From positions 1 through 64,000 of the IMG/VR virus record IMGVR_UViG_3300031857_000054: a stretch of DNA of 64,000 nucleotides, one strand, 5' to 3'. Positions 1-59,752 of this stretch are shown here, piece by piece. Below the pieces are notes generated by a model. It saw nothing but the letters and a program-made list of their open reading frames with translations, was not told where the DNA came from and ran no database searches. The position numbers and the translations under genes are program-made. Origin of the DNA: a virus. Within the stretch, counting starts at the first letter, position 1, and each line of letters begins with the position of its first letter.

Positions 1-2237
1 TTATCATAAAACTTAATATAACTACCGCCAAAGCCGTAAATATAACGATCCATTTGATCGGCAAGATCAATATTACCTTTTACTCTTACAGTACCGTTAA
101 CATCTAACTTATATCCTGCATCGGTAGCTGTACCAATACCCAAACCATTACTGCGGATATAGGAAAACCCTCCTGTTTCTAAGAGTATTTCTGTAGTTCC
201 ACTATTTATTAAATATAATGCACCACGATTATTATTCCCTACTCTTCTAAACTCACCAATGTTAGTTCCATTTTGCTGTAGAATAATACCTCCAGCATTT
301 ACTGTTGTATTAACAGTAGCACCACCTACAGTAATGGCATTGGTGGTGGTGTTCCCTGCTGTGGTTACTTGAGCTAGGGTAGGAACTGAGACCAAGGGAG
401 TACCTCCAAAGATGGTAGATATGGTTTTGTTCTTCCATAAATCCGTAGATGATTCATAAACCAAAAGGTCGTTGTTGACTTCTGAGGCAATAGCTACATC
501 ATGAAGTTCGTGTAACTCATATCCGTTCTGAATACGATAAACTATAGTTCCGTTTGTCGGAGAGGTTCTAGTTACGACCCCTACGTAAACTAAGTGCTGA
601 GGAGCCGAAGGTTTTACGTTCGTAAGATATCCAGGAATTGTAGGGTGAAGGTAAAGAATGTCTCCGTCTACGAGAGTAACGTCTGTAAAAGGATGTGTCG
701 CTACTGAACGAGTATCTAAAGTATCAATCGTTCCTTGAACAATAACATACCCATCTGAGTTGTTGTTTATGTCCGTTGCAACTACACCAAAGGTTTGTGC
801 AGAGTTAGCATCGTTGTTACCTTGGGCCTTTACAAAGTTAGGAAGATGTCCTGTTGAACCTTGGATTCTGATTACTGTGCCTTTATAAAGAGTAGCTCCT
901 GTAGAGTTTCTTCCTAAAGTCATTAAAGCCTCTGCCTTGTCTACGATTCCACTATTGTCTGTGTCGTAAGTGGAGTTTCCTAAGAATACAGGCTTTCCAT
1001 TAAACCTTGTATATAGAGTAGCGTTATCTACTTCTACGCAGTGTACAAATCCCTTATAATCAATTTTATAATTGTCTTTTTTAGCAGTACTCCCTTGTAA
1101 GTTATTGAAATTACAATTTAGTCTATAAAAGTCTCTAACACCGTAGGAAGTAATTGCAGGAGAGCATTTTGTAATTGTGGCGTATCCTCCAAGTTTTAAG
1201 ATTATTTCTTGTAAATCATCAGCCATTCTTTTTGATACAGTAGTAATATTATTACTATTTAGATGACCGTCTCCTTTGTAGTAAGCACTATAAAATAAAA
1301 TTAACTTTTCTGGAGGTAAATTCTTGACAAAAGATGGAATAAATTTATTGTGAGCATGTTTGCCAAACTGACTTAAAAATTTTGCTAGTTCTGAGTGCCT
1401 AAAGTTAAAATGTGCATTCTGGTTGTGAGCCAAAGTTCTTCCTAAACTTCTTGCTAGCTCAACCATAACTTTAGTACAGTCAGCAATAGTTTTGCTTTTT
1501 GTTTGAGTTACGTATATTTTAGTACCAACCACACAACCTTCAGCTAAAAACCAACCTAAGAATTCTAAAAACAAATCATCGTCAATTCCAAAAGGATTAG
1601 TTTCTGTTTTTACTCCATTCCATTTTGCTGTTATTGGAAATGACCTTATTTTTTCTGAAACTTCATCAGCTCTTTCCCAATAAAAATCTTCAGACCAAAC
1701 TAGTCCTCTTTGTCCTCCATACCATTTTCTTACATACATCCTATGGTTAGGAGTAACCAAATAAGATAACTGTTTAGTCTCTCTTCCTAATAGTTCTCCG
1801 TCATACTCGTATTTAAAAATATGATTAGGTACTTGGTATTCTAACTCTTTTGTCTCTTGATTAAGAGTTGCTACTTCATCGTCAAATGAAATGTCAGTGA
1901 TTTTTTTCCAGCCGTTTAGAGTTAATAACTCTGTGTCGGGGTGAAAACACTTATACATATCACCACCTCCACCTCCTCCTGCAACAGGTTTCCACACTCC
2001 GTCATCGGCTAAGTAAAGATTACCTGCTCCTGTAGCACCTGTTCCTAATCTATTGGGATCGATGATACCAGTAGAGATGAAAGCCGCATCGAATAATCTG
2101 AATGCAGGTGTACCAAAGTTTACTGGGTCTGTGGCAAACACATACTTTGGTGGGAACTGAGGAGACAAAAAACCTTGTTGAGCAGATGCTTGTGTAAAGG
2201 TTATAAGGTCTTGAGGAGTCAGAGGATTATTAGACAT
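1..2237 (-). CDS. Tail fibre/spike protein interrupted by an intein (runs off the window at its 3' end)
   Basis: Open frame from ATG at 2237 to the window edge (MSNNPLTPQD...GGGGGGDMYK-[intein]-STYDTDNSGIVDKAE...NGYELHELHDV...GIGTATDAGYKLDVNG). GDMxKSxYD, ELHELHDV and GIGT...KLDVNG are typical phage fibre motifs. Not in the ORF track because it has no stop codon in the window. Confidence 0.85.
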   Translation of the reverse strand, partial: MSNNPLTPQDLITFTQASAQQGFLSPQFPPKYVFATDPVNFGTPAFRLFDAAFISTGIIDPNRLGTGATGAGNLYLADDGVWKPVAGGGGGGDMYKCFHPDTELLTLNGWKKITDISFDDEVATLNQETKELEYQVPNHIFKYEYDGELLGRETKQLSYLVTPNHRMYVRKWYGGQRGLVWSEDFYWERADEVSEKIRSFPITAKWNGVKTETNPFGIDDDLFLEFLGWFLAEGCVVGTKIYVTQTKSKTIADCTKVMVELARSLGRTLAHNQNAHFNFRHSELAKFLSQFGKHAHNKFIPSFVKNLPPEKLILFYSAYYKGDGHLNSNNITTVSKRMADDLQEIILKLGGYATITKCSPAITSYGVRDFYRLNCNFNNLQGSTAKKDNYKIDYKGFVHCVEVDNATLYTRFNGKPVFLGNSTYDTDNSGIVDKAEALMTLGRNSTGATLYKGTVIRIQGSTGHLPNFVKAQGNNDANSAQTFGVVATDINNNSDGYVIVQGTIDTLDTRSVATHPFTDVTLVDGDILYLHPTIPGYLTNVKPSAPQHLVYVGVVTRTSPTNGTIVYRIQNGYELHELHDVAIASEVNNDLLVYESSTDLWKNKTISTIFGGTPLVSVPTLAQVTTAGNTTTNAITVGGATVNTTVNAGGIILQQNGTNIGEFRRVGNNNRGALYLINSGTTEILLETGGFSYIRSNGLGIGTATDAGYKLDVNGTVRVKGNIDLADQMDRYIYGFGGSYIKFYD
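975..1949 (-). mobile_element. Intein (325 aa) with LAGLIDADG homing endonuclease
   Basis: Starts CFHPDTELLTLNGWKKI (block A); block B VTPNHRMYV; LAGLIDADG motifs FLGWFLAEG and FYSAYYKGDG; ends VHCVEV...PVFLGN followed by extein Ser+1. Confidence 0.92.
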
Positions 2238-2280: not shown

Positions 2281-2311
2281 AAAAAAATAAAGGGGGATAT
2301 AAATCCCCCTC
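2281..2311 (-). terminator. Intrinsic terminator ending the replication operon
   Basis: AGGGGGAT/ATCCCCCT stem followed by a T-run on the minus strand. Confidence 0.7.
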
Positions 2312-8418: not shown

Positions 8419-10422
8419 TTATTTCTTCCAATAAGGTGCGATACAAGGGTCAGCTTTCAGCGGTATAGTTTTACAAAACTTACTGCCTGCTTTCTCCATT
8501 GCATCTTGTAATGCATTAGCACATTCCTCAGCTAATGATTGAGGACATTCCACTAGGTTTTCGTCGTGGATTGTGTTTACAAACTTTACTGTAAATAGTA
8601 GTTTGTTTGGTACGAGATAGTTGTGCCAGAATAAAACACAAGATAACTTGGTTATTTCTGAAGACTCGCCTTGGATAGGATAGTTCAATGACATACGTTC
8701 AATCTCACCTTTCTTCATAGAGAATGCTTGTACTTCTTTCTTAAGCTCTCTAAAAGTAGGAGTATTGTTTTCTTTGTGTCTTTTGTAACTTTCCCAAAAA
8801 TCGTTAGTCATCTTGCCCTTCTTCTCCATGTACCATTCATAGTTGTCTACGTAAGACTTTTTACCTGTTACTTCTGAAATCAATACATAGCCATTCTTCA
8901 GTCCGAACTGTTTGGCTTTCTCAAAGTATGATTTCAATCCAGGAAATGCTCTGAAGTATGAATCATAGATATGCTGACCCTGATCTAGAGTTAGTCCTAA
9001 CTGATCCGCAATACCTCTTCCGCTGCCTCCGTAGTTGATGGCGAAACCTGCCACCTTTGCTGCTTGACGTTTCTCTTTATGCTTCTTCTTGATGTCATCA
9101 AGTGGCATGCCGTCTAGCTCTGGATACATCTTAGATGCCACAAATGAGTGCATATCTCCAAGATCCTTCCTGTAGAACTCTAATAGGTTCTCGTCAAGAC
9201 ATTTGTTCACTAGAACAATCTGCTCTTGACCTGTGTAATCACAGCCTATTAATGTGTTTCCTTCTTCTGCTACAAAACAACTTCTAGTTTCTACGTCACT
9301 AGGTATGTTTTGAAAGTTTGGATAAGCTTCTCCTGTAGCTTTGTTTCGTCCACCACTAGATAAGCGTCCAGTATTCATCAACTGCTTATAACTTGTGTGT
9401 ATTCTACCACTAACGGGGTTAATTAGCTTTAGCCAATTGTCGCCATACGTTCCGATATTCTTTTGGCATTCTTTGTATCGGATGTATGTTTCAAGTATAG
9501 GAAACTCTTCTACTTGTTTTACTAATTGACTTGACTCTGTAGTCTTCTTAACTACACCTTTGTCTACTATCTCAACGTCTACACCCATCATTTCAAATAG
9601 TTTAATGACTTGGGTTGCGCTGTTCCAGTTGATGTTGGTACTTAAACCTGGATTAAATAGATCTGTCTGTAAATCTACAAACTTGTCGTACTTATTCTCG
9701 ATTACATAGTTGTCAAGTTCTTTTCTTAGTTCTTCTGCTTCATTCTTAATCTTTCCCAATCGGTTGAGCCACTTCTCTACGTCTAGCTTCATACCGCAGT
9801 ATTCAATGTAAGATAAAACAATTACGAACCGATTATCTAGGTCAATAGATAATGTACAGTTCTTTTCCTTGATTAGTTCTTCTTGTTGTCTTCTGATTTC
9901 ATGTAGATATACTACGTCTGTGCCGCTATACCTAATGAAATCTACTGTAAACCTACCAGTAATGTTAAGACGCTCTGCCTTATCCATATACTTACCGCAG
10001 TATCTATCTACACAATCTGCCAAAGAACACTTATGGGTATCTACTCCTAAGTAAAGTGTCTTCTCTGCAATGAATGTGTCATATATCTTAGACGGTATAA
10101 TTCGGTTGTGCAAAAGAAATCTGATGTCAAACTTTAAGTTATGACCTATCAGTTCTTTCTTCTCAAGGATGTCCTTGAAGATTTGAATGTCAACAGTTGC
10201 TGTATCTATTACAAACTGAACTTGAGCATTACCAATCTGAATACATACTATCCTATCAGTATATGGATCAAAGCCCAGCGTCTCTATGTCAAATCCAAGT
10301 ACGTCCTGACTTTCCAAGTAGGATAAACAAGATGAGATTGTACAAGGCAATATCTCATCACGAGATAGTGTCTTGATTTCTTTTTGTAGTTCGGTGTTAT
10401 TTGTAATAAAATACAGTGCCAT
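8419..10422 (-). CDS. polA: DNA polymerase, family A, with 3'-5' exonuclease
   Basis: ExoI FDIETLG, ExoII GHNLKFD, TGRLSS, motif A CDYTGQE, motif B RQAAKVAGFAINYG (Phe at the E. coli 762-equivalent), motif C IHDE. Confidence 0.96.
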   Translation of the reverse strand: MALYFITNNTELQKEIKTLSRDEILPCTISSCLSYLESQDVLGFDIETLGFDPYTDRIVCIQIGNAQVQFVIDTATVDIQIFKDILEKKELIGHNLKFDIRFLLHNRIIPSKIYDTFIAEKTLYLGVDTHKCSLADCVDRYCGKYMDKAERLNITGRFTVDFIRYSGTDVVYLHEIRRQQEELIKEKNCTLSIDLDNRFVIVLSYIEYCGMKLDVEKWLNRLGKIKNEAEELRKELDNYVIENKYDKFVDLQTDLFNPGLSTNINWNSATQVIKLFEMMGVDVEIVDKGVVKKTTESSQLVKQVEEFPILETYIRYKECQKNIGTYGDNWLKLINPVSGRIHTSYKQLMNTGRLSSGGRNKATGEAYPNFQNIPSDVETRSCFVAEEGNTLIGCDYTGQEQIVLVNKCLDENLLEFYRKDLGDMHSFVASKMYPELDGMPLDDIKKKHKEKRQAAKVAGFAINYGGSGRGIADQLGLTLDQGQHIYDSYFRAFPGLKSYFEKAKQFGLKNGYVLISEVTGKKSYVDNYEWYMEKKGKMTNDFWESYKRHKENNTPTFRELKKEVQAFSMKKGEIERMSLNYPIQGESSEITKLSCVLFWHNYLVPNKLLFTVKFVNTIHDENLVECPQSLAEECANALQDAMEKAGSKFCKTIPLKADPCIAPYWKK

Positions 10423-42877: not shown

Positions 42878-42885
42878 TTAATCTT

Positions 42886-43524
42886 ATGAACTATACAAGA
42901 GAACAAATTGAAGCCGCAGTAAAAGCCAAGGGCTATGCTTACTTTGATGGCACAAAAGACTACGATGTAAATATCATCGGAGTACGTAACTCTTCTACTG
43001 GTAACGATGTTACTAACTTGTTTGATGACACTATGACTGTTGCTTACAAAGTAGGAGGCAAATGGGTATTTCACCAATGGATGGCTACCACAGATCCAGG
43101 TACTAAAGGTGTTAGAGAATTTCACAATGCTGGTGGAGTAGCAAGACTAGTTCCAGGTCAGTACAGAGGTTCACACGGTATTGGTCTACACCAAGGTAAG
43201 TACGAAGCTTTGAAGCAAGCTAAACCAGTGAAGGTTTATCGTGATGCTAACAAAGACATGACTTACGATGAGAATACCATCACTGAGGGTATCTACGGTA
43301 TCAACATCCACAAAGCTGGTGCAGATTCTACTTTTGTAGAAAACTGGAGCGAAGGATGCCAAGTGTTTAAGCGTGAGAAAGATTTTAACCAATTTATGGA
43401 AATCTGTAAACAAGCTCGTGGCATTCATGGTAACTCTTTCACTTACACCTTGATTGAGTCTGGTGACTTTATTGTTGCTGACAAAGTAAAAGGCGAAGCT
43501 AAAAGAGCTGCTAAGAAAAAATAA
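42886..43524 (+). CDS. Putative endolysin, L,D-transpeptidase (YkuD)-like
   Basis: GINIHKAG...NWSEGCQ His/Cys motif; TTDPG; basic C-terminus. Confidence 0.65.
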   Translation: MNYTREQIEAAVKAKGYAYFDGTKDYDVNIIGVRNSSTGNDVTNLFDDTMTVAYKVGGKWVFHQWMATTDPGTKGVREFHNAGGVARLVPGQYRGSHGIGLHQGKYEALKQAKPVKVYRDANKDMTYDENTITEGIYGINIHKAGADSTFVENWSEGCQVFKREKDFNQFMEICKQARGIHGNSFTYTLIESGDFIVADKVKGEAKRAAKKK

Positions 43525-58222: not shown

Positions 58223-59752
58223 ATGCCTAATCAATCCATTACCAGAGTTAACGGTCGCGTTATAGCTAATGCGCACGTTACCAGCTCTTACTATTCTAAG
58301 AATAGTTTGGGTAAGTTGACCGACAAAAACTTTGTCGAGTCAATGTTGAAAACTAAACCAGACCAGTATGACAAAGTTATGTTGCGTCTGTTCACTGACA
58401 CTCGCTTGTATTCTAACGATTTGTTGGATCTTGTGATGAAGAACGGTAAGCCATTTATGGTTAACGACCCTAATGGTGTCTTCACTTACAAAATCAAGAA
58501 GCGTGCTGAACTTCCAAAAATCATTGCCAACTTTGCTACAACTGTTGCAAAACCTGGTATTGATGGTCAAGAGTTCGAAATCGTATTTGACAAACAAGGT
58601 TTTGTTGTAAACGATATCATCAGCGCACACCGTTATGAGCAAGAGACTTTGGTACAAATCGTATCTGAGCCTGAGCGTTACCAAAATGGTTTCAAATACC
58701 GTTGCCGTGCCGTTGCCGCTAGTAGCACTGACTTCGTTAACCAACGTTTCTTGGTTGTAGGTACTGAGTACTTCAAAGTAGGTAACGTATTGGGTGAGTA
58801 CACCACTTCATTCTCTAGCTTGGGATTGTTCGATGGTCACTTGGAAGTTATGGCTGACGTATTGAGTCAATATGGTGTTGAACACACTATCACTGACTGG
58901 GCTGATGCTACTAAACTTGGTATGCAAACTGACGCTACTGGTAATCCTATGGACTTGACTTACTACACTTTGACTGATCCTACTGCTGAAGCAGAGAAGA
59001 CAAAGATCGTAGGTTGGGAACCAACTGTATCTCGTTTGTTGCGTATGGAAATGATGCGCATGAAAGCAAACATGTTGATGTGGGGTCGCCAAGGTCAAGC
59101 TAAAGACGAAAGAGGTCGCTCTACTCGTATGAAGCAAGGTTTGTGGCAGCAATTGCACTTGGGTAACATTATCCAATACGATCGTGGTCAATTCTCTTTG
59201 AACTTGATTCGTACTGCAATTGGTGACTTGTTCTACAACCGTGTATTGATTGCTGATCGTAAAGTAAAAGTTTACACCAACCGTGCAGGTATGGAGTTGG
59301 CTTCTTCTGCTATCAAAAAAGACTTCAACAGTGCGAACTTTATGGTTAACGCTGATAAGTTCATGGATGGTAAAGATCGCTTGAAGCAAGGTTATGCTTT
59401 CCAATTTGACCACTACATGACTACCGAAACTGGTCCTGTTGAGTTCGTAGAATTGGAACAGTTGAACATGCATGCTACTTTCTTGGAATTGGGACCTAAT
59501 AAGAAAACTCCTCCAATCTTTATCGTACTTGACGTATCTGGTCAAGAAGATTCAGGTATCCGTGAGGTTAAGTTGTCTACTCGTCCTAACATGTACTACC
59601 AGTACATCCCAGGTTCAGTAGGATTCGGAAGCCAACAAACCGTAATTGCTAACAAAGATCCTTATAGCACTTACATCATGAAAGACTTCTGTGGTGTCTT
59701 CTTGGAAGATCCAACCAGAACTGTAATCATTAAAGAATACCCACGCCTCTAA
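58223..59752 (+). CDS. Major capsid protein (crAss type)
   Basis: 509 aa, strongly biased codons, position after scaffold; PGIDGQEF, GLWQQL, FLEDPTR. Confidence 0.9.
   Translation: MPNQSITRVNGRVIANAHVTSSYYSKNSLGKLTDKNFVESMLKTKPDQYDKVMLRLFTDTRLYSNDLLDLVMKNGKPFMVNDPNGVFTYKIKKRAELPKIIANFATTVAKPGIDGQEFEIVFDKQGFVVNDIISAHRYEQETLVQIVSEPERYQNGFKYRCRAVAASSTDFVNQRFLVVGTEYFKVGNVLGEYTTSFSSLGLFDGHLEVMADVLSQYGVEHTITDWADATKLGMQTDATGNPMDLTYYTLTDPTAEAEKTKIVGWEPTVSRLLRMEMMRMKANMLMWGRQGQAKDERGRSTRMKQGLWQQLHLGNIIQYDRGQFSLNLIRTAIGDLFYNRVLIADRKVKVYTNRAGMELASSAIKKDFNSANFMVNADKFMDGKDRLKQGYAFQFDHYMTTETGPVEFVELEQLNMHATFLELGPNKKTPPIFIVLDVSGQEDSGIREVKLSTRPNMYYQYIPGSVGFGSQQTVIANKDPYSTYIMKDFCGVFLEDPTRTVIIKEYPRL

What the first reader, a model, noticed from the sequence alone, without database searches (positions are those of the whole stretch)
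975..1949. Homing-endonuclease intein inside a tail-fibre protein
Seen: a 325 aa intein (Cys1, TPNH, two LAGLIDADG motifs, terminal Asn, Ser+1; penultimate Gly instead of His) splits the fibre motif GDMYK|STYDTDNSGIVDKAE. Known: phage inteins mostly occupy conserved sites of replication, nucleotide-metabolism or packaging enzymes. Inference: this intein uses a short motif shared by otherwise mosaic fibre genes as its homing site. Splicing must precede fibre assembly, so it could gate virion maturation. The gene is absent from the ORF track.
Basis: partly seen in the sequence, partly recalled or inferred. Interest (0 to 1): 0.8.

Follow-up and report, generated by a model that had tools for sequence, protein, structure and literature searches.

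The report
Homing intein in phage tail fibre
A tail-fibre gene of an uncultured crAss-like phage is interrupted by a complete, apparently still mobile self-splicing intein that targets a short motif shared by otherwise unrelated fibre genes; the element is an ordinary intein, but I found no report of one in this kind of fast-evolving host gene.

Summary
Window 975-1949 (minus strand) encodes a 325-aa intein, Cys1 to Asn325 with Ser+1, inside a fibre gene (3-2237) that runs off the contig end. That truncation is why it was missing from the ORF track.

- **Intein identity:** it passes NCBIfam intein_Nterm and Pfam LAGLIDADG_3. It models confidently (pLDDT 89.5) and matches solved endonuclease inteins (TliVMA, PI-SceI; E 1e-19 to 1e-12).
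- **Empty alleles:** intein-free alleles read straight through the site. The nearest, L007, differs by 1 of 81 flanking bases: GCC (Ala) versus TCC (Ser) at +1.
- **Spread:** the same intein (92-99.9% nt identity) occupies the same site in seven or more other fibre genes. These have two unrelated N-terminal families and two C-terminal module types.
- **Selection:** dN/dS is 0.05 overall and 0.09 in the endonuclease.
- **Target motif:** GDMxK|[S/A/T]TYDxDNxGxVDxAE occurs in 107 IMG/VR stretches, in very different proteins.
- **Penultimate Gly:** this is a trait of the whole intein family, and such phage inteins are known to splice.

My verdict is a genuine, probably active class-1 LAGLIDADG intein: a new member of a known kind in an unusual host gene. 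The idea that it gates virion maturation is untested. This scan earlier noted an unrelated intein in a lectin-type tail protein on other DNA.

The parts
3..2237 (-). Tail-fibre precursor gene (745 codons inside the window), truncated at the contig start. It reads N-extein, intein, then the first 324 aa of the C-extein.
   Evidence: One open frame. The window is the first 64 kb of the contig. The other contig end does not continue the frame. L073 overlaps window 1-127 at 100% and extends the frame.
1950..2237 (-). N-extein, 96 aa, family 'A' N-terminal domain (MSNNPL...AGNLYLADDGVWK...GGGGGGDMYK).
   Evidence: It aligns with the N-termini of intein-free L006-L009, L093, L111 and L163. The last 60 nt are 100% identical to intein-free L007.
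975..1949 (-). Intein, 325 aa (P0001), class 1 with an embedded LAGLIDADG homing endonuclease.
1620..1949 (-). N-terminal splicing (Hint) lobe, aa 1-110. It holds block A (Cys1, window 1908-1949) and block B (LVTPNHRMYV, T66 and H69, window 1731-1760).
   Evidence: TIGR01445 hit over aa 1-73. C1, T6, T66 and H69 are invariant in the family alignment. The model shows beta strands.
1098..1619 (-). LAGLIDADG homing-endonuclease domain, about aa 111-284. Motif 1 is at window 1530-1568 (E137) and motif 2 at window 1260-1301 (D227).
   Evidence: PF14528 at 1.5e-8. phmmer match to the TliVMA intein endonuclease region. Foldseek matches to I-DmoI and PI-SceI. D227 is invariant and E137 nearly so (>=90%). 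dN/dS is 0.086.
975..1097 (-). C-terminal splicing lobe, aa 285-325. It holds block F (YKGFVHCVEVD, window 1026-1058) and block G (NGKPVFLGN, window 975-1001), ending in Gly324-Asn325.
   Evidence: Family alignment, where the terminal GN is shared by 11 of 13 members. Strands appear in the model.
3..974 (-). C-extein, first 324 aa. It starts with Ser+1 (TCC). Residues 1-217 (window 322-974) form a conserved fibre module. A divergent distal part follows the junction ...VPTLAQVTTAGNTTTNAITVGG.
   Evidence: tblastn matches to annotated tail fibre proteins. Window 322-972 is 95.4% nt identical to intein-free L005/L021. The module differs from L005 by 2 of 217 aa.
930..1979 (-). The split target motif. 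GGGGGGDMYK lies at window 1950-1979 and STYDTDNSGIVDKAE at window 930-974. They are contiguous in intein-free alleles.

Best explanation
This is a canonical class-1 intein with an embedded LAGLIDADG homing endonuclease, inserted in a tail-fibre gene of a crAss-like phage. It sits inside the junction motif GDMYK|STYDxDNxGxVDxAE, which links the N-terminal domain to the first distal module.

**Inferred mechanism, from what is established for inteins:**
1. The fibre is translated as a precursor.
2. Cys1 forms a thioester with Lys-1.
3. Ser+1 attacks that thioester to give a branched ester.
4. Asn325 cyclises and releases the intein. Here there is no penultimate His, which is usual for this intein family.
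5. An O-to-N shift leaves a native Lys-Ser bond, restoring the continuous motif so that the fibre can fold and assemble.
6. The freed intein acts as a site-specific endonuclease on intein-less copies of the motif in co-infecting related phages.
7. Recombinational repair copies the intein into the cut allele.

**What is shown here:** intein identity, exact boundaries, empty alleles, same-site copies in divergent and non-homologous fibre genes, and purifying selection on both domains.

**What is inferred:** splicing, DNA cleavage, and co-transfer of the +1 Ser codon. The last point is suggested by the data but not shown. In N-terminal family A, all six distinct empty alleles have Ala (GCY) at +1, whereas all four sequenced occupied alleles have Ser (TCY).
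For: **Identity as an intein**
- TIGR01445 scores above its cut-off and LAGLIDADG_3 gives 1.5e-8.
- tblastn gives full-length 27-29% matches to inteins in Lak phage, coliphage TH47 and mycobacteriophage nucleotidyltransferases.
- The 13-member family alignment shows C1, T66, H69, D227 and G318 invariant, and E137 and N325 nearly invariant.
- The AF2 model has pLDDT 89.5 and pTM 0.89.
- Foldseek top hits are the TliVMA, PhoVMA, PI-SceI and PI-PfuI inteins, E 2.6e-19 to 2.6e-12, with I-DmoI for the nuclease core.

**Empty sites**
- L007, L009, L006, L008 and L163 read ...GDM[YL]K ATYD..., and L005, L010 and L021 read ...K STYD..., all without interruption.
- L007 differs from the window by 1 of 81 nt around the site.

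**Mobility**
- L074 and L076 inteins are 974/975 nt identical, while their N-exteins are 76% and C-exteins 82% identical.
- The window and L074 inteins are 92% identical, against 67-71% for their exteins.
- P0005-P0011 carry the intein at 92-100% aa identity among themselves and to the window copy. They cover all four combinations of two unrelated N-terminal families and two C-module types.
- P0012 carries a 48%-identical intein at the same motif in a third protein type.

**Selection**
- dN/dS is 0.05 overall, 0.007 in the splicing lobes and 0.086 in the endonuclease, with dS 0.38.

**The +1 codon**
- Occupied alleles have TCC or TCT. Family-A empty alleles have GCY in 6 of 6 cases. The closest C-module donor type, L005, uses AGC.

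**Penultimate Gly**
- The Bethlehem gp51 intein with penultimate Gly splices (PMC5050341).
Against: - No experiment exists. Splicing and cleavage are inferred from sequence alone.
- Penultimate His is absent, and the block-F position that is usually Asp appears to be Cys. That is my reading, not a verified block assignment.
- Pfam Hint_2 is below threshold (18.4 bits against 28.4).
- Between L074 and L076, the 60 nt next to the intein are less alike (80-82%) than the following 400 nt (95-98%). Simple co-conversion would predict the opposite.
- Fibre modules also recombine at this motif without any intein, so some spread could be hitch-hiking.
- All sequences come from metagenome assemblies. 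A near-identical 975-nt element shared by co-occurring phages could cause chimeric joins.
- DNA for the family-B occupied alleles could not be fetched.
Confidence: 0.85

Rival explanations
1. The intein is real and splices, but its endonuclease no longer drives spread. On this reading the element moves passively with the frequent homologous exchange of fibre modules, or its own 975 nt of near-identical DNA serves as the crossover region. Its distribution would then reflect fibre mosaicism, not homing.
For: - Fibre genes here recombine at this motif without an intein. Window 322-972 is 95.4% identical to an intein-free family-B gene, with identity starting at the junction.
- L074, L076 and intein-free L163 share a 93-99% identical tract of about 500-600 nt downstream.
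- The immediate flanks of L074 and L076 differ more than the distal flanks do.
- A similar idea was raised for the phiCbK terminase intein (PMC3556154).
Against: - The endonuclease domain is under purifying selection (dN/dS 0.086 at dS 0.38), and the catalytic residues E137 and D227 are conserved across the family.
- The intein is 99.9% identical where both flanks are only 76-82% identical.
- Occupied alleles share ATGTATAAG|TCY at the junction, whereas their nearest empty relatives differ there.
Confidence: 0.1
2. The intein has been co-opted as a conditional switch. Splicing would be slow or triggered by something such as redox state at Cys1 or calcium at the adjacent D-x-D-x-[DS]-G loop, so that fibre assembly and virion maturation are timed by it.
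For: - The insertion lies three residues before an acidic loop that resembles an EF-hand or DxDxDG calcium loop. This is my own reading and was not tested.
- Non-canonical penultimate residues change splicing rates in phage inteins (PMC5050341).
- The precursor cannot form a continuous fibre until it is spliced (inference).
Against: - Presence and absence are polymorphic among close relatives, about 4 occupied against 16 or more empty distinct alleles in IMG/VR families A and B. The fibre therefore works without the intein.
- The pattern is that of a selfish element.
- No sequence feature specific to regulation was found.
Confidence: 0.04
3. The insert is a decaying or non-splicing Hint/BIL-type domain, or the interrupted gene is a pseudogene.
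For: - Penultimate His is lacking, and Pfam Hint_2 is sub-threshold.
- The gene is truncated in this contig.
Against: - All other catalytic positions are intact.
- dN/dS in the splicing lobes is 0.007.
- Full-length open precursors of 1387-1785 aa exist in relatives.
- +1 is Ser in every occupied allele.
- The truncation is an assembly break. L073 continues the frame with a 127-nt exact overlap.
Confidence: 0.01

Closest known systems
Homing-endonuclease inteins of the PI-SceI / TliVMA / PI-PfuI type (PDB 1VDE, 7QSU, 1DQ3)
   Same: Both have a two-lobed Hint splicing domain with a LAGLIDADG endonuclease inserted. They share Cys1, block-B Thr/His, a terminal Asn and a +1 nucleophile. The structures match at E 1e-19 to 1e-12 with TM 0.6-0.69.
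   Different: - Sequence identity is only 10-17%.
- The penultimate residue is Gly, not His.
- This intein is smaller (325 aa) and lacks the extra DNA-recognition region of PI-SceI.
- The host is a phage fibre protein, not a V-ATPase or an RNR.
Mycobacteriophage class-1 inteins without penultimate His, such as the Bethlehem gp51 intein (Kelley et al. 2016, PMC5050341) and the cluster-C nucleotidyltransferase inteins
   Same: Both are phage-borne LAGLIDADG inteins with a Gly-Asn C-terminus. The window intein aligns full-length at 27% identity to the cluster-C gp3 inteins. In that paper such inteins were shown to splice and to home.
   Different: The published examples sit in DNA-metabolism or packaging proteins of actinophages. 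This one sits in a fibre gene of a crAss-like phage, probably with a Bacteroidota host.
Inteins in actinophage virion proteins: portal, minor capsid and tape measure (bioRxiv 10.1101/2025.01.02.630785)
   Same: Both are inteins in non-enzymatic structural proteins. Both show near-identical inteins in divergent exteins, separated by intein-free relatives. Relatives of the window intein also occur in portal (PF04860, PF06074), tape-measure (PF10145) and prohead-protease (PF03420) proteins.
   Different: - Tail fibre or receptor-binding proteins are not among the hosts listed in that survey.
- Here the target is a short motif reused by non-homologous genes, not one conserved gene family.
Bacterial intein-like (BIL) and Hint domains in variable surface proteins
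   Same: Both are Hint folds inside hypervariable, fibre-like proteins.
   Different: BIL domains lack an endonuclease, and as far as I know they mostly cleave rather than splice. This element has an endonuclease, a conserved +1 Ser, and empty alleles that are exactly colinear.

Membership tests
Intein (class 1) | An in-frame insert that is absent from otherwise colinear homologues of the host protein. | tested here: met
   Eight or more intein-free alleles read through the site without a gap.
Intein (class 1) | A Hint fold with splicing blocks A, B, F and G. | tested here: met
   TIGR01445 scores 25.2 bits against a 24.5 cut-off. The family alignment shows the blocks. The model has pLDDT 89.5 and Foldseek matches inteins, hedgehog Hint and BIL domains. 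Pfam Hint_2 alone is sub-threshold.
Intein (class 1) | An N-terminal nucleophile (Cys, Ser or Thr at position 1) and block-B Thr-x-x-His. | tested here: met
   Cys1, T66 and H69 are invariant in 13 family members.
Intein (class 1) | A C-terminal Asn preceded by His. | tested here: inconclusive
   Asn325 is present, but the penultimate residue is Gly, as in 11 of 13 family members. Published phage inteins with Gly-Asn do splice (PMC5050341), so the His is not strictly defining.
Intein (class 1) | A +1 nucleophile (Cys, Ser or Thr) on the C-extein. | tested here: met
   Ser+1 is found in the window copy, in L074-L076 and in P0005-P0012.
Intein (class 1) | Demonstrated protein splicing. | not testable with these tools
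   This needs expression or a virion proteome.
Class 3 intein | The WCT triplet (Trp B:12, Cys F:4, Thr G:5) with no residue-1 nucleophile. | tested here: not met
   Cys1 is invariant. By my reading, B:12 is Met and G:5 is Leu. Only the block-F Cys is present.
LAGLIDADG homing endonuclease (double-motif, monomeric) | Two LAGLIDADG helices, each ending in a catalytic acidic residue. | tested here: met
   LEFLGWFLAEG (E137) and YYKGDG (D227). D227 is invariant and E137 nearly so. PF14528 scores above its cut-off. The fold matches I-DmoI and PI-SceI.
LAGLIDADG homing endonuclease (double-motif, monomeric) | Site-specific cleavage of the empty allele, with homing. | tested here: inconclusive
   Only population evidence is available: near-identical inteins in divergent exteins, presence/absence polymorphism, and dN/dS of 0.086. 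There is no enzymology.
Phage tail fibre / receptor-binding protein (host protein) | Homology to proteins identified as tail fibres, plus virion location. | tested here: inconclusive
   - The C-extein matches GenBank 'tail fiber protein' entries, E 3e-24 to 1e-5.
- The full-length intein-free homologue L006 hits PHROG tail protein at 3e-35 and tail spike protein at 7e-12.
- The continuation L073 hits PHROG tail fiber protein at 2e-8.
- There is no Pfam hit, no usable structure model and no proteome.

The most novel reading that the evidence does not exclude
The intein may be more than a passenger. It places a site-specific double-strand break, plus 975 nt of portable homology, exactly at the universal joint between the virion-anchoring N-terminal domain and the exchangeable distal modules of fibre genes. 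In mixed infections it would then act as a motor for swapping receptor-binding modules between non-homologous fibre genes of crAss-like phages, driving host-range shuffling through co-conversion. The occupied alleles already cover all four N-family by C-module combinations. The +1 codon of the window allele follows the intein, not either flanking module.
Probability: 0.15. Interest if true: 0.75.

Novelty: new member of a known kind. Interest (0 to 1): 0.5.

Why it matters
Inteins are thought to persist by targeting very conserved sites in conserved, mostly nucleotide-handling or packaging genes. That is where a homing endonuclease always finds its site and where imprecise loss is lethal.

Here a standard intein persists in one of the fastest-evolving classes of phage genes. 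It does so by using a roughly 20-residue junction motif that many unrelated fibre genes reuse. In one gene family the +1 nucleophile needed for splicing is not even native: the empty alleles have Ala there.

Three consequences follow:
- **Host range of inteins.** The list of intein host proteins now extends to host-recognition proteins.
- **Annotation.** Such genes are labelled 'hypothetical protein' in public records, and naive gene calls will mis-size fibres.
- **A testable system.** The data offer a natural case for asking whether homing endonucleases promote exchange of receptor-binding modules.

There is also a practical point. The motif may be a tolerant insertion site for engineering fibres.

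Tried and rejected
- **megablast of the locus against GenBank phages:** no match.
- **tblastn of the N-extein against phages:** no match.
- **PHROGs on the window's own exteins:** nothing useful. Pfam on full-length relatives found only the LAGLIDADG domain.
- **AF2 monomer model of the intein-free extein region:** built from 12 sequences to place the insertion site in a structure. It failed (pLDDT 38), so nothing is claimed from it.
- **Search for the rest of the gene at the other contig end:** not there.
- **Second motif copy or second intein in the same genome:** none found.
- **DNA of the family-B occupied alleles (P0005, P0006, P0010, P0011):** The single metagenome scan returned only distant inteins. 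The +1 codon and co-conversion analysis therefore rests on four DNA copies, all from family A.
- **Class 3 intein:** rejected, because there is no WCT triplet and Cys1 is invariant.
- **BIL domain and pseudogene:** rejected (see the rival explanations).
- **Literature:** six full-text searches and eight papers read turned up no tail-fibre intein. Subscription journals are not covered, so absence is not proven.
Full report
**What is there**

The window is the first 64 kb of a 107,017-base linear viral contig, estimated 92% complete. On the minus strand, one open frame runs from the ATG at 2237 down to base 3 and off the contig end. This explains why an ORF list restricted to complete frames missed it.

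Window 975-1949 (minus) translates to 325 residues, from CFHPDTELL to KPVFLGN. It is flanked by ...GGGGGGDMYK upstream and STYDTDNSGIVDKAE... downstream.

**Is it an intein?**

- NCBIfam intein_Nterm (TIGR01445) scores 25.2 bits against a cut-off of 24.5 over residues 1-73. Pfam LAGLIDADG_3 scores 35.2 bits against 22.5 over residues 217-275. Pfam Hint_2 is sub-threshold.
- phmmer against PDB sequences finds the Thermococcus V-ATPase intein endonuclease region and mini-inteins.
- tblastn against GenBank phages gives 181 records, 158 of them covering at least 80% of the intein at 27-29% identity. They include Lak megaphages, coliphage TH47 and the cluster-C mycobacteriophage nucleotidyltransferase inteins.
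- I aligned thirteen family members taken from IMG/VR loci. C1, T6, T66, H69, G132, G138, G226, D227, D244-L246 and G318 are invariant. E137 and N325 are nearly invariant. Eleven of the thirteen end in Gly-Asn.
- The AlphaFold2 model built on this alignment is confident, with mean pLDDT 89.5 and pTM 0.89.
- Foldseek against the PDB returns homing-endonuclease inteins first: TliVMA at 2.6e-19, PhoVMA, PI-SceI, PI-PkoII and PI-PfuI. Mini-inteins, hedgehog Hint, a BIL domain and I-DmoI follow for the separate lobes.

The element is therefore a bifunctional class-1 intein. It is not class 3. Cys1 is invariant and the WCT triplet is absent, although the block-F position that is usually Asp is Cys in most members (my reading).

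The penultimate Gly is a family trait. Kelley et al. showed that a mycobacteriophage intein with penultimate Gly splices, and splices faster than its Gly-to-His mutant (PMC5050341).

**Empty alleles**

A search of IMG/VR with the C-extein returned 69 loci. In L006, L007, L008 and L009 the protein has the same N-terminal domain as the window's gene and reads straight through the site...GGGGGGDM[YL]K ATYD[TV]DN.... In L005, L010 and L021 a different N-terminal domain is followed by ...GDM[SY]K STYD....

At the DNA level L007 differs from the window by one base in the 36 + 45 nt around the site. That base changes GCC (Ala) to TCC (Ser) at +1. L163 is an intein-free allele that is 93-100% identical to intein-bearing L076 in most of the N-extein. 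It is 89-99% identical over the first 600 nt of the C-extein. It carries a patch of differences from about -45 to +20 around the insertion point.

**Other copies and mobility**

- Searching IMG/VR with the intein found three contigs (L074, L075, L076) with the same intein at the same site.
- The large protein collection added seven 90%-identity clusters, P0005-P0011. P0007 corresponds to L076 and P0008 to L074. All are labelled 'hypothetical protein' or mislabelled.
- L074 and L076 inteins differ at 1 of 975 nt, while their N-exteins are 76.5% and their C-exteins 81.9% identical. The window's intein is 92% identical to these, against 67-73% for the exteins.
- Across the eight proteins the inteins differ at 0-27 of 325 residues. 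The N-exteins fall into two unrelated families:
  - Family A: MPSNPL...AGNLYLADDGTWK.
  - Family B: ...SAPANAQVLTYNSTTSQWENQTP.
  
  Identity between the two families is 23-47%.
- The C-exteins fall into two types that are 49-55% identical. All four N-by-C combinations occur, and intein similarity tracks neither flank.
- P0012 carries a 48%-identical intein at GGGDMLK|C...AGN|SIYDP in a third kind of protein, so this insertion site has some depth.
- Between the window copy and L074 there are 58 synonymous and 12 non-synonymous codon differences. By Nei-Gojobori, dS is 0.38 and dN/dS is 0.05 overall, 0.007 in the splicing lobes and 0.086 in the endonuclease.

Purifying selection on the endonuclease, presence/absence polymorphism and intein-extein incongruence together are the classical signature of an active homing cycle. 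The actinophage survey uses the same argument (bioRxiv 10.1101/2025.01.02.630785).

**The target motif**

An exact degenerate-codon scan for G-D-M-x-K-x-T-Y-D-x-D-N found 107 stretches in IMG/VR. Among the 80 stretches returned there are 69 distinct sites.

The motif GDMxK[S/A/T]TYDxDNxGxVDxAE occurs 41 to 994 residues into proteins of 90 to 1853 aa. The sequences on both sides are quite different from one protein to the next. Over the 80 loci, +1 is Ser in 49, Ala in 22 and Thr in 6.

By gene family the +1 position is:
- Family-A empty alleles: Ala in 6 of 6 distinct sites (GCT or GCC).
- Family-B empty alleles: Ser in 6 of 10 (AGY in five, TCG in one) and Thr in 4 of 10.
- All four occupied alleles with DNA: TCC or TCT.

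The window's first C-extein module (window 322-972) is 95.4% nt identical to the family-B intein-free gene L005, and differs from it at 2 of 217 residues. The identity begins at the third base of the +1 codon, which is AGC in L005. The Ser codon therefore appears to go with the intein rather than with either flanking module. That fits short co-conversion and the chemical need for a +1 nucleophile. This is an inference from four DNA copies.

The motif D-x-D-x-[DS]-G-x-V-D-x-x-E resembles an EF-hand-type calcium loop. That is a resemblance recalled from memory, not a test.

**Host protein and phage**

- The C-extein (residues about 15-183) matches GenBank proteins annotated as tail fibre or tail protein. 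These include Pseudomonas phage Rollin (3e-24), Nitrincola phage 1M3-16, Synechococcus phages S-N03 and S-SM2, and Roseobacter phage CRP-6.
- The intein-free full-length homologue L006 hits PHROG 'tail protein' at 3e-35 and 'tail spike protein' at 7e-12.
- Contig L073 overlaps window 1-127 at 100%. A 127-nt overlap is typical of an assembly-graph break. L073 extends the frame to 978 residues counted from that point, and its distal part hits PHROG 'tail fiber protein' at 2e-8. The precursor is thus probably about 1,680 aa and the mature fibre about 1,355 aa. Because this is an assembly-graph break, alternative continuations may exist.
- The major capsid protein (window 58223-59752) hits Pfam Crass_capsid at 3.5e-28, and a family-A DNA polymerase is present. 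Other tail proteins lie at window 37-42.5 kb.

The host gene is therefore very probably a tail fibre of a crAss-like phage. No virion proteome or usable structure supports this yet.

**Caveats**

- Nothing here shows splicing or cleavage directly.
- Fibre modules also recombine at this motif without an intein.
- A second conserved joint, ...VPTLAQVTTAGNTTTNAITVGG, lies about 220 residues downstream. Part of the intein's distribution could therefore be hitch-hiking.
- Between L074 and L076, the 60 nt next to the intein are less similar (80-82%) than the next 400 nt (95-98%), mostly through synonymous changes in the downstream half-site. I cannot explain this.
- All data are metagenome assemblies, in which a shared 975-nt element could create chimeric joins.

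**Novelty**

Surveys of phage inteins list the following hosts:
- Enzymes and packaging: terminase, helicase, primase, polymerases, RNR, ThyX, methylases and nucleotidyltransferase.
- Virion proteins: portal, minor capsid and tape measure.

No tail fibre appears in either list. A cryoconite study that explicitly looked for inteins in variable genes found 0 in 36 tail-fibre regions. Crassvirales reviews mention inteins in TerL only. My six full-text searches found no tail-fibre intein, but they cover open-access papers only.

Earlier notes of this scan record an unrelated LAGLIDADG intein in a lectin-type tail-module protein of another phage (e1-3288002; unchecked by me). Tail-appendage hosts may therefore not be unique.

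My verdict is an ordinary intein mechanism in a new and instructive host-gene class, with a new insertion site.

Noticed in passing
window 1-127 and L073:1-2936: A separate IMG/VR contig (IMGVR_UViG_3300031786_000305) overlaps the contig start by exactly 127 nt at 100%. It continues the fibre frame for 978 aa, and its distal part hits PHROG 'tail fiber protein'. It is probably the missing C-terminus, lost at an assembly-graph branch.
   Followed up: partly
window 322-400 (C-extein residues ~190-224): A second conserved module joint, ...LWKNKxISxIFGGTPLxxVPTLAQVTTAGNTTTNAITVGG. After it all alleles drop to about 50% nt identity, so these fibres are built from modules of about 650 nt separated by conserved joints.
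   Followed up: partly
window 322-972 versus L005/L021:4003-4653; window 42884-43371: The first C-extein module is 95.4% nt identical to an intein-free fibre gene with a different N-terminal domain. In that phage the gene sits next to a homologue of window 42886-43524 (PHROG 3000, endolysin-like). The same module is therefore used at two different genomic positions in related phages.
   Followed up: partly
L074 and L076, first 60 nt on each side of the intein: These two inteins are 974/975 nt identical, yet their immediate flanks are only 80-82% identical, with mostly synonymous changes downstream. The next roughly 400 nt downstream are 95-98% identical. Simple co-conversion would give the opposite pattern. 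Unexplained.
   Followed up: partly
window 930-965 (DTDNSGIVDKAE): The conserved half of the motif reads D-x-D-x-[DS]-G-x-V-D-x-x-E, like an EF-hand or DxDxDG calcium-binding loop. The intein sits three residues before it. This is a resemblance from memory only.
   Followed up: no
window 1026-1058 (block F, VHCVEV): Most members of this intein family have Cys where class-1 inteins usually have Asp in block F. [quoted passage not shown]
   Followed up: partly
window 58223-59752; 8419-10422: The major capsid protein hits Pfam Crass_capsid (3.5e-28), and a family-A DNA polymerase is present, so this is a crAss-like phage. Earlier notes of the scan on the same genome say the same.
   Followed up: partly
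window 2292-2311: A G+C-rich hairpin (AGGGGGAT ATA AATCCCCCT) lies between the fibre gene start and the preceding gene at 2350-2691. It is probably a terminator, which would leave the fibre gene with its own start signal.
   Followed up: no
window 975-1949: The intein has 32.8% G+C, against 37.5% for the genome and 40-44% for the exteins.
   Followed up: no
P0013-P0124: Distant relatives (25-36% identity) of this intein sit in portal (PF04860, PF06074, PF07230), tape-measure (PF10145), prohead-protease (PF03420), metallophosphoesterase, NrdD, RNA polymerase beta and terminase proteins. This Gly-Asn intein clade is thus widespread in phage virion genes as well as in enzymes.
   Followed up: no
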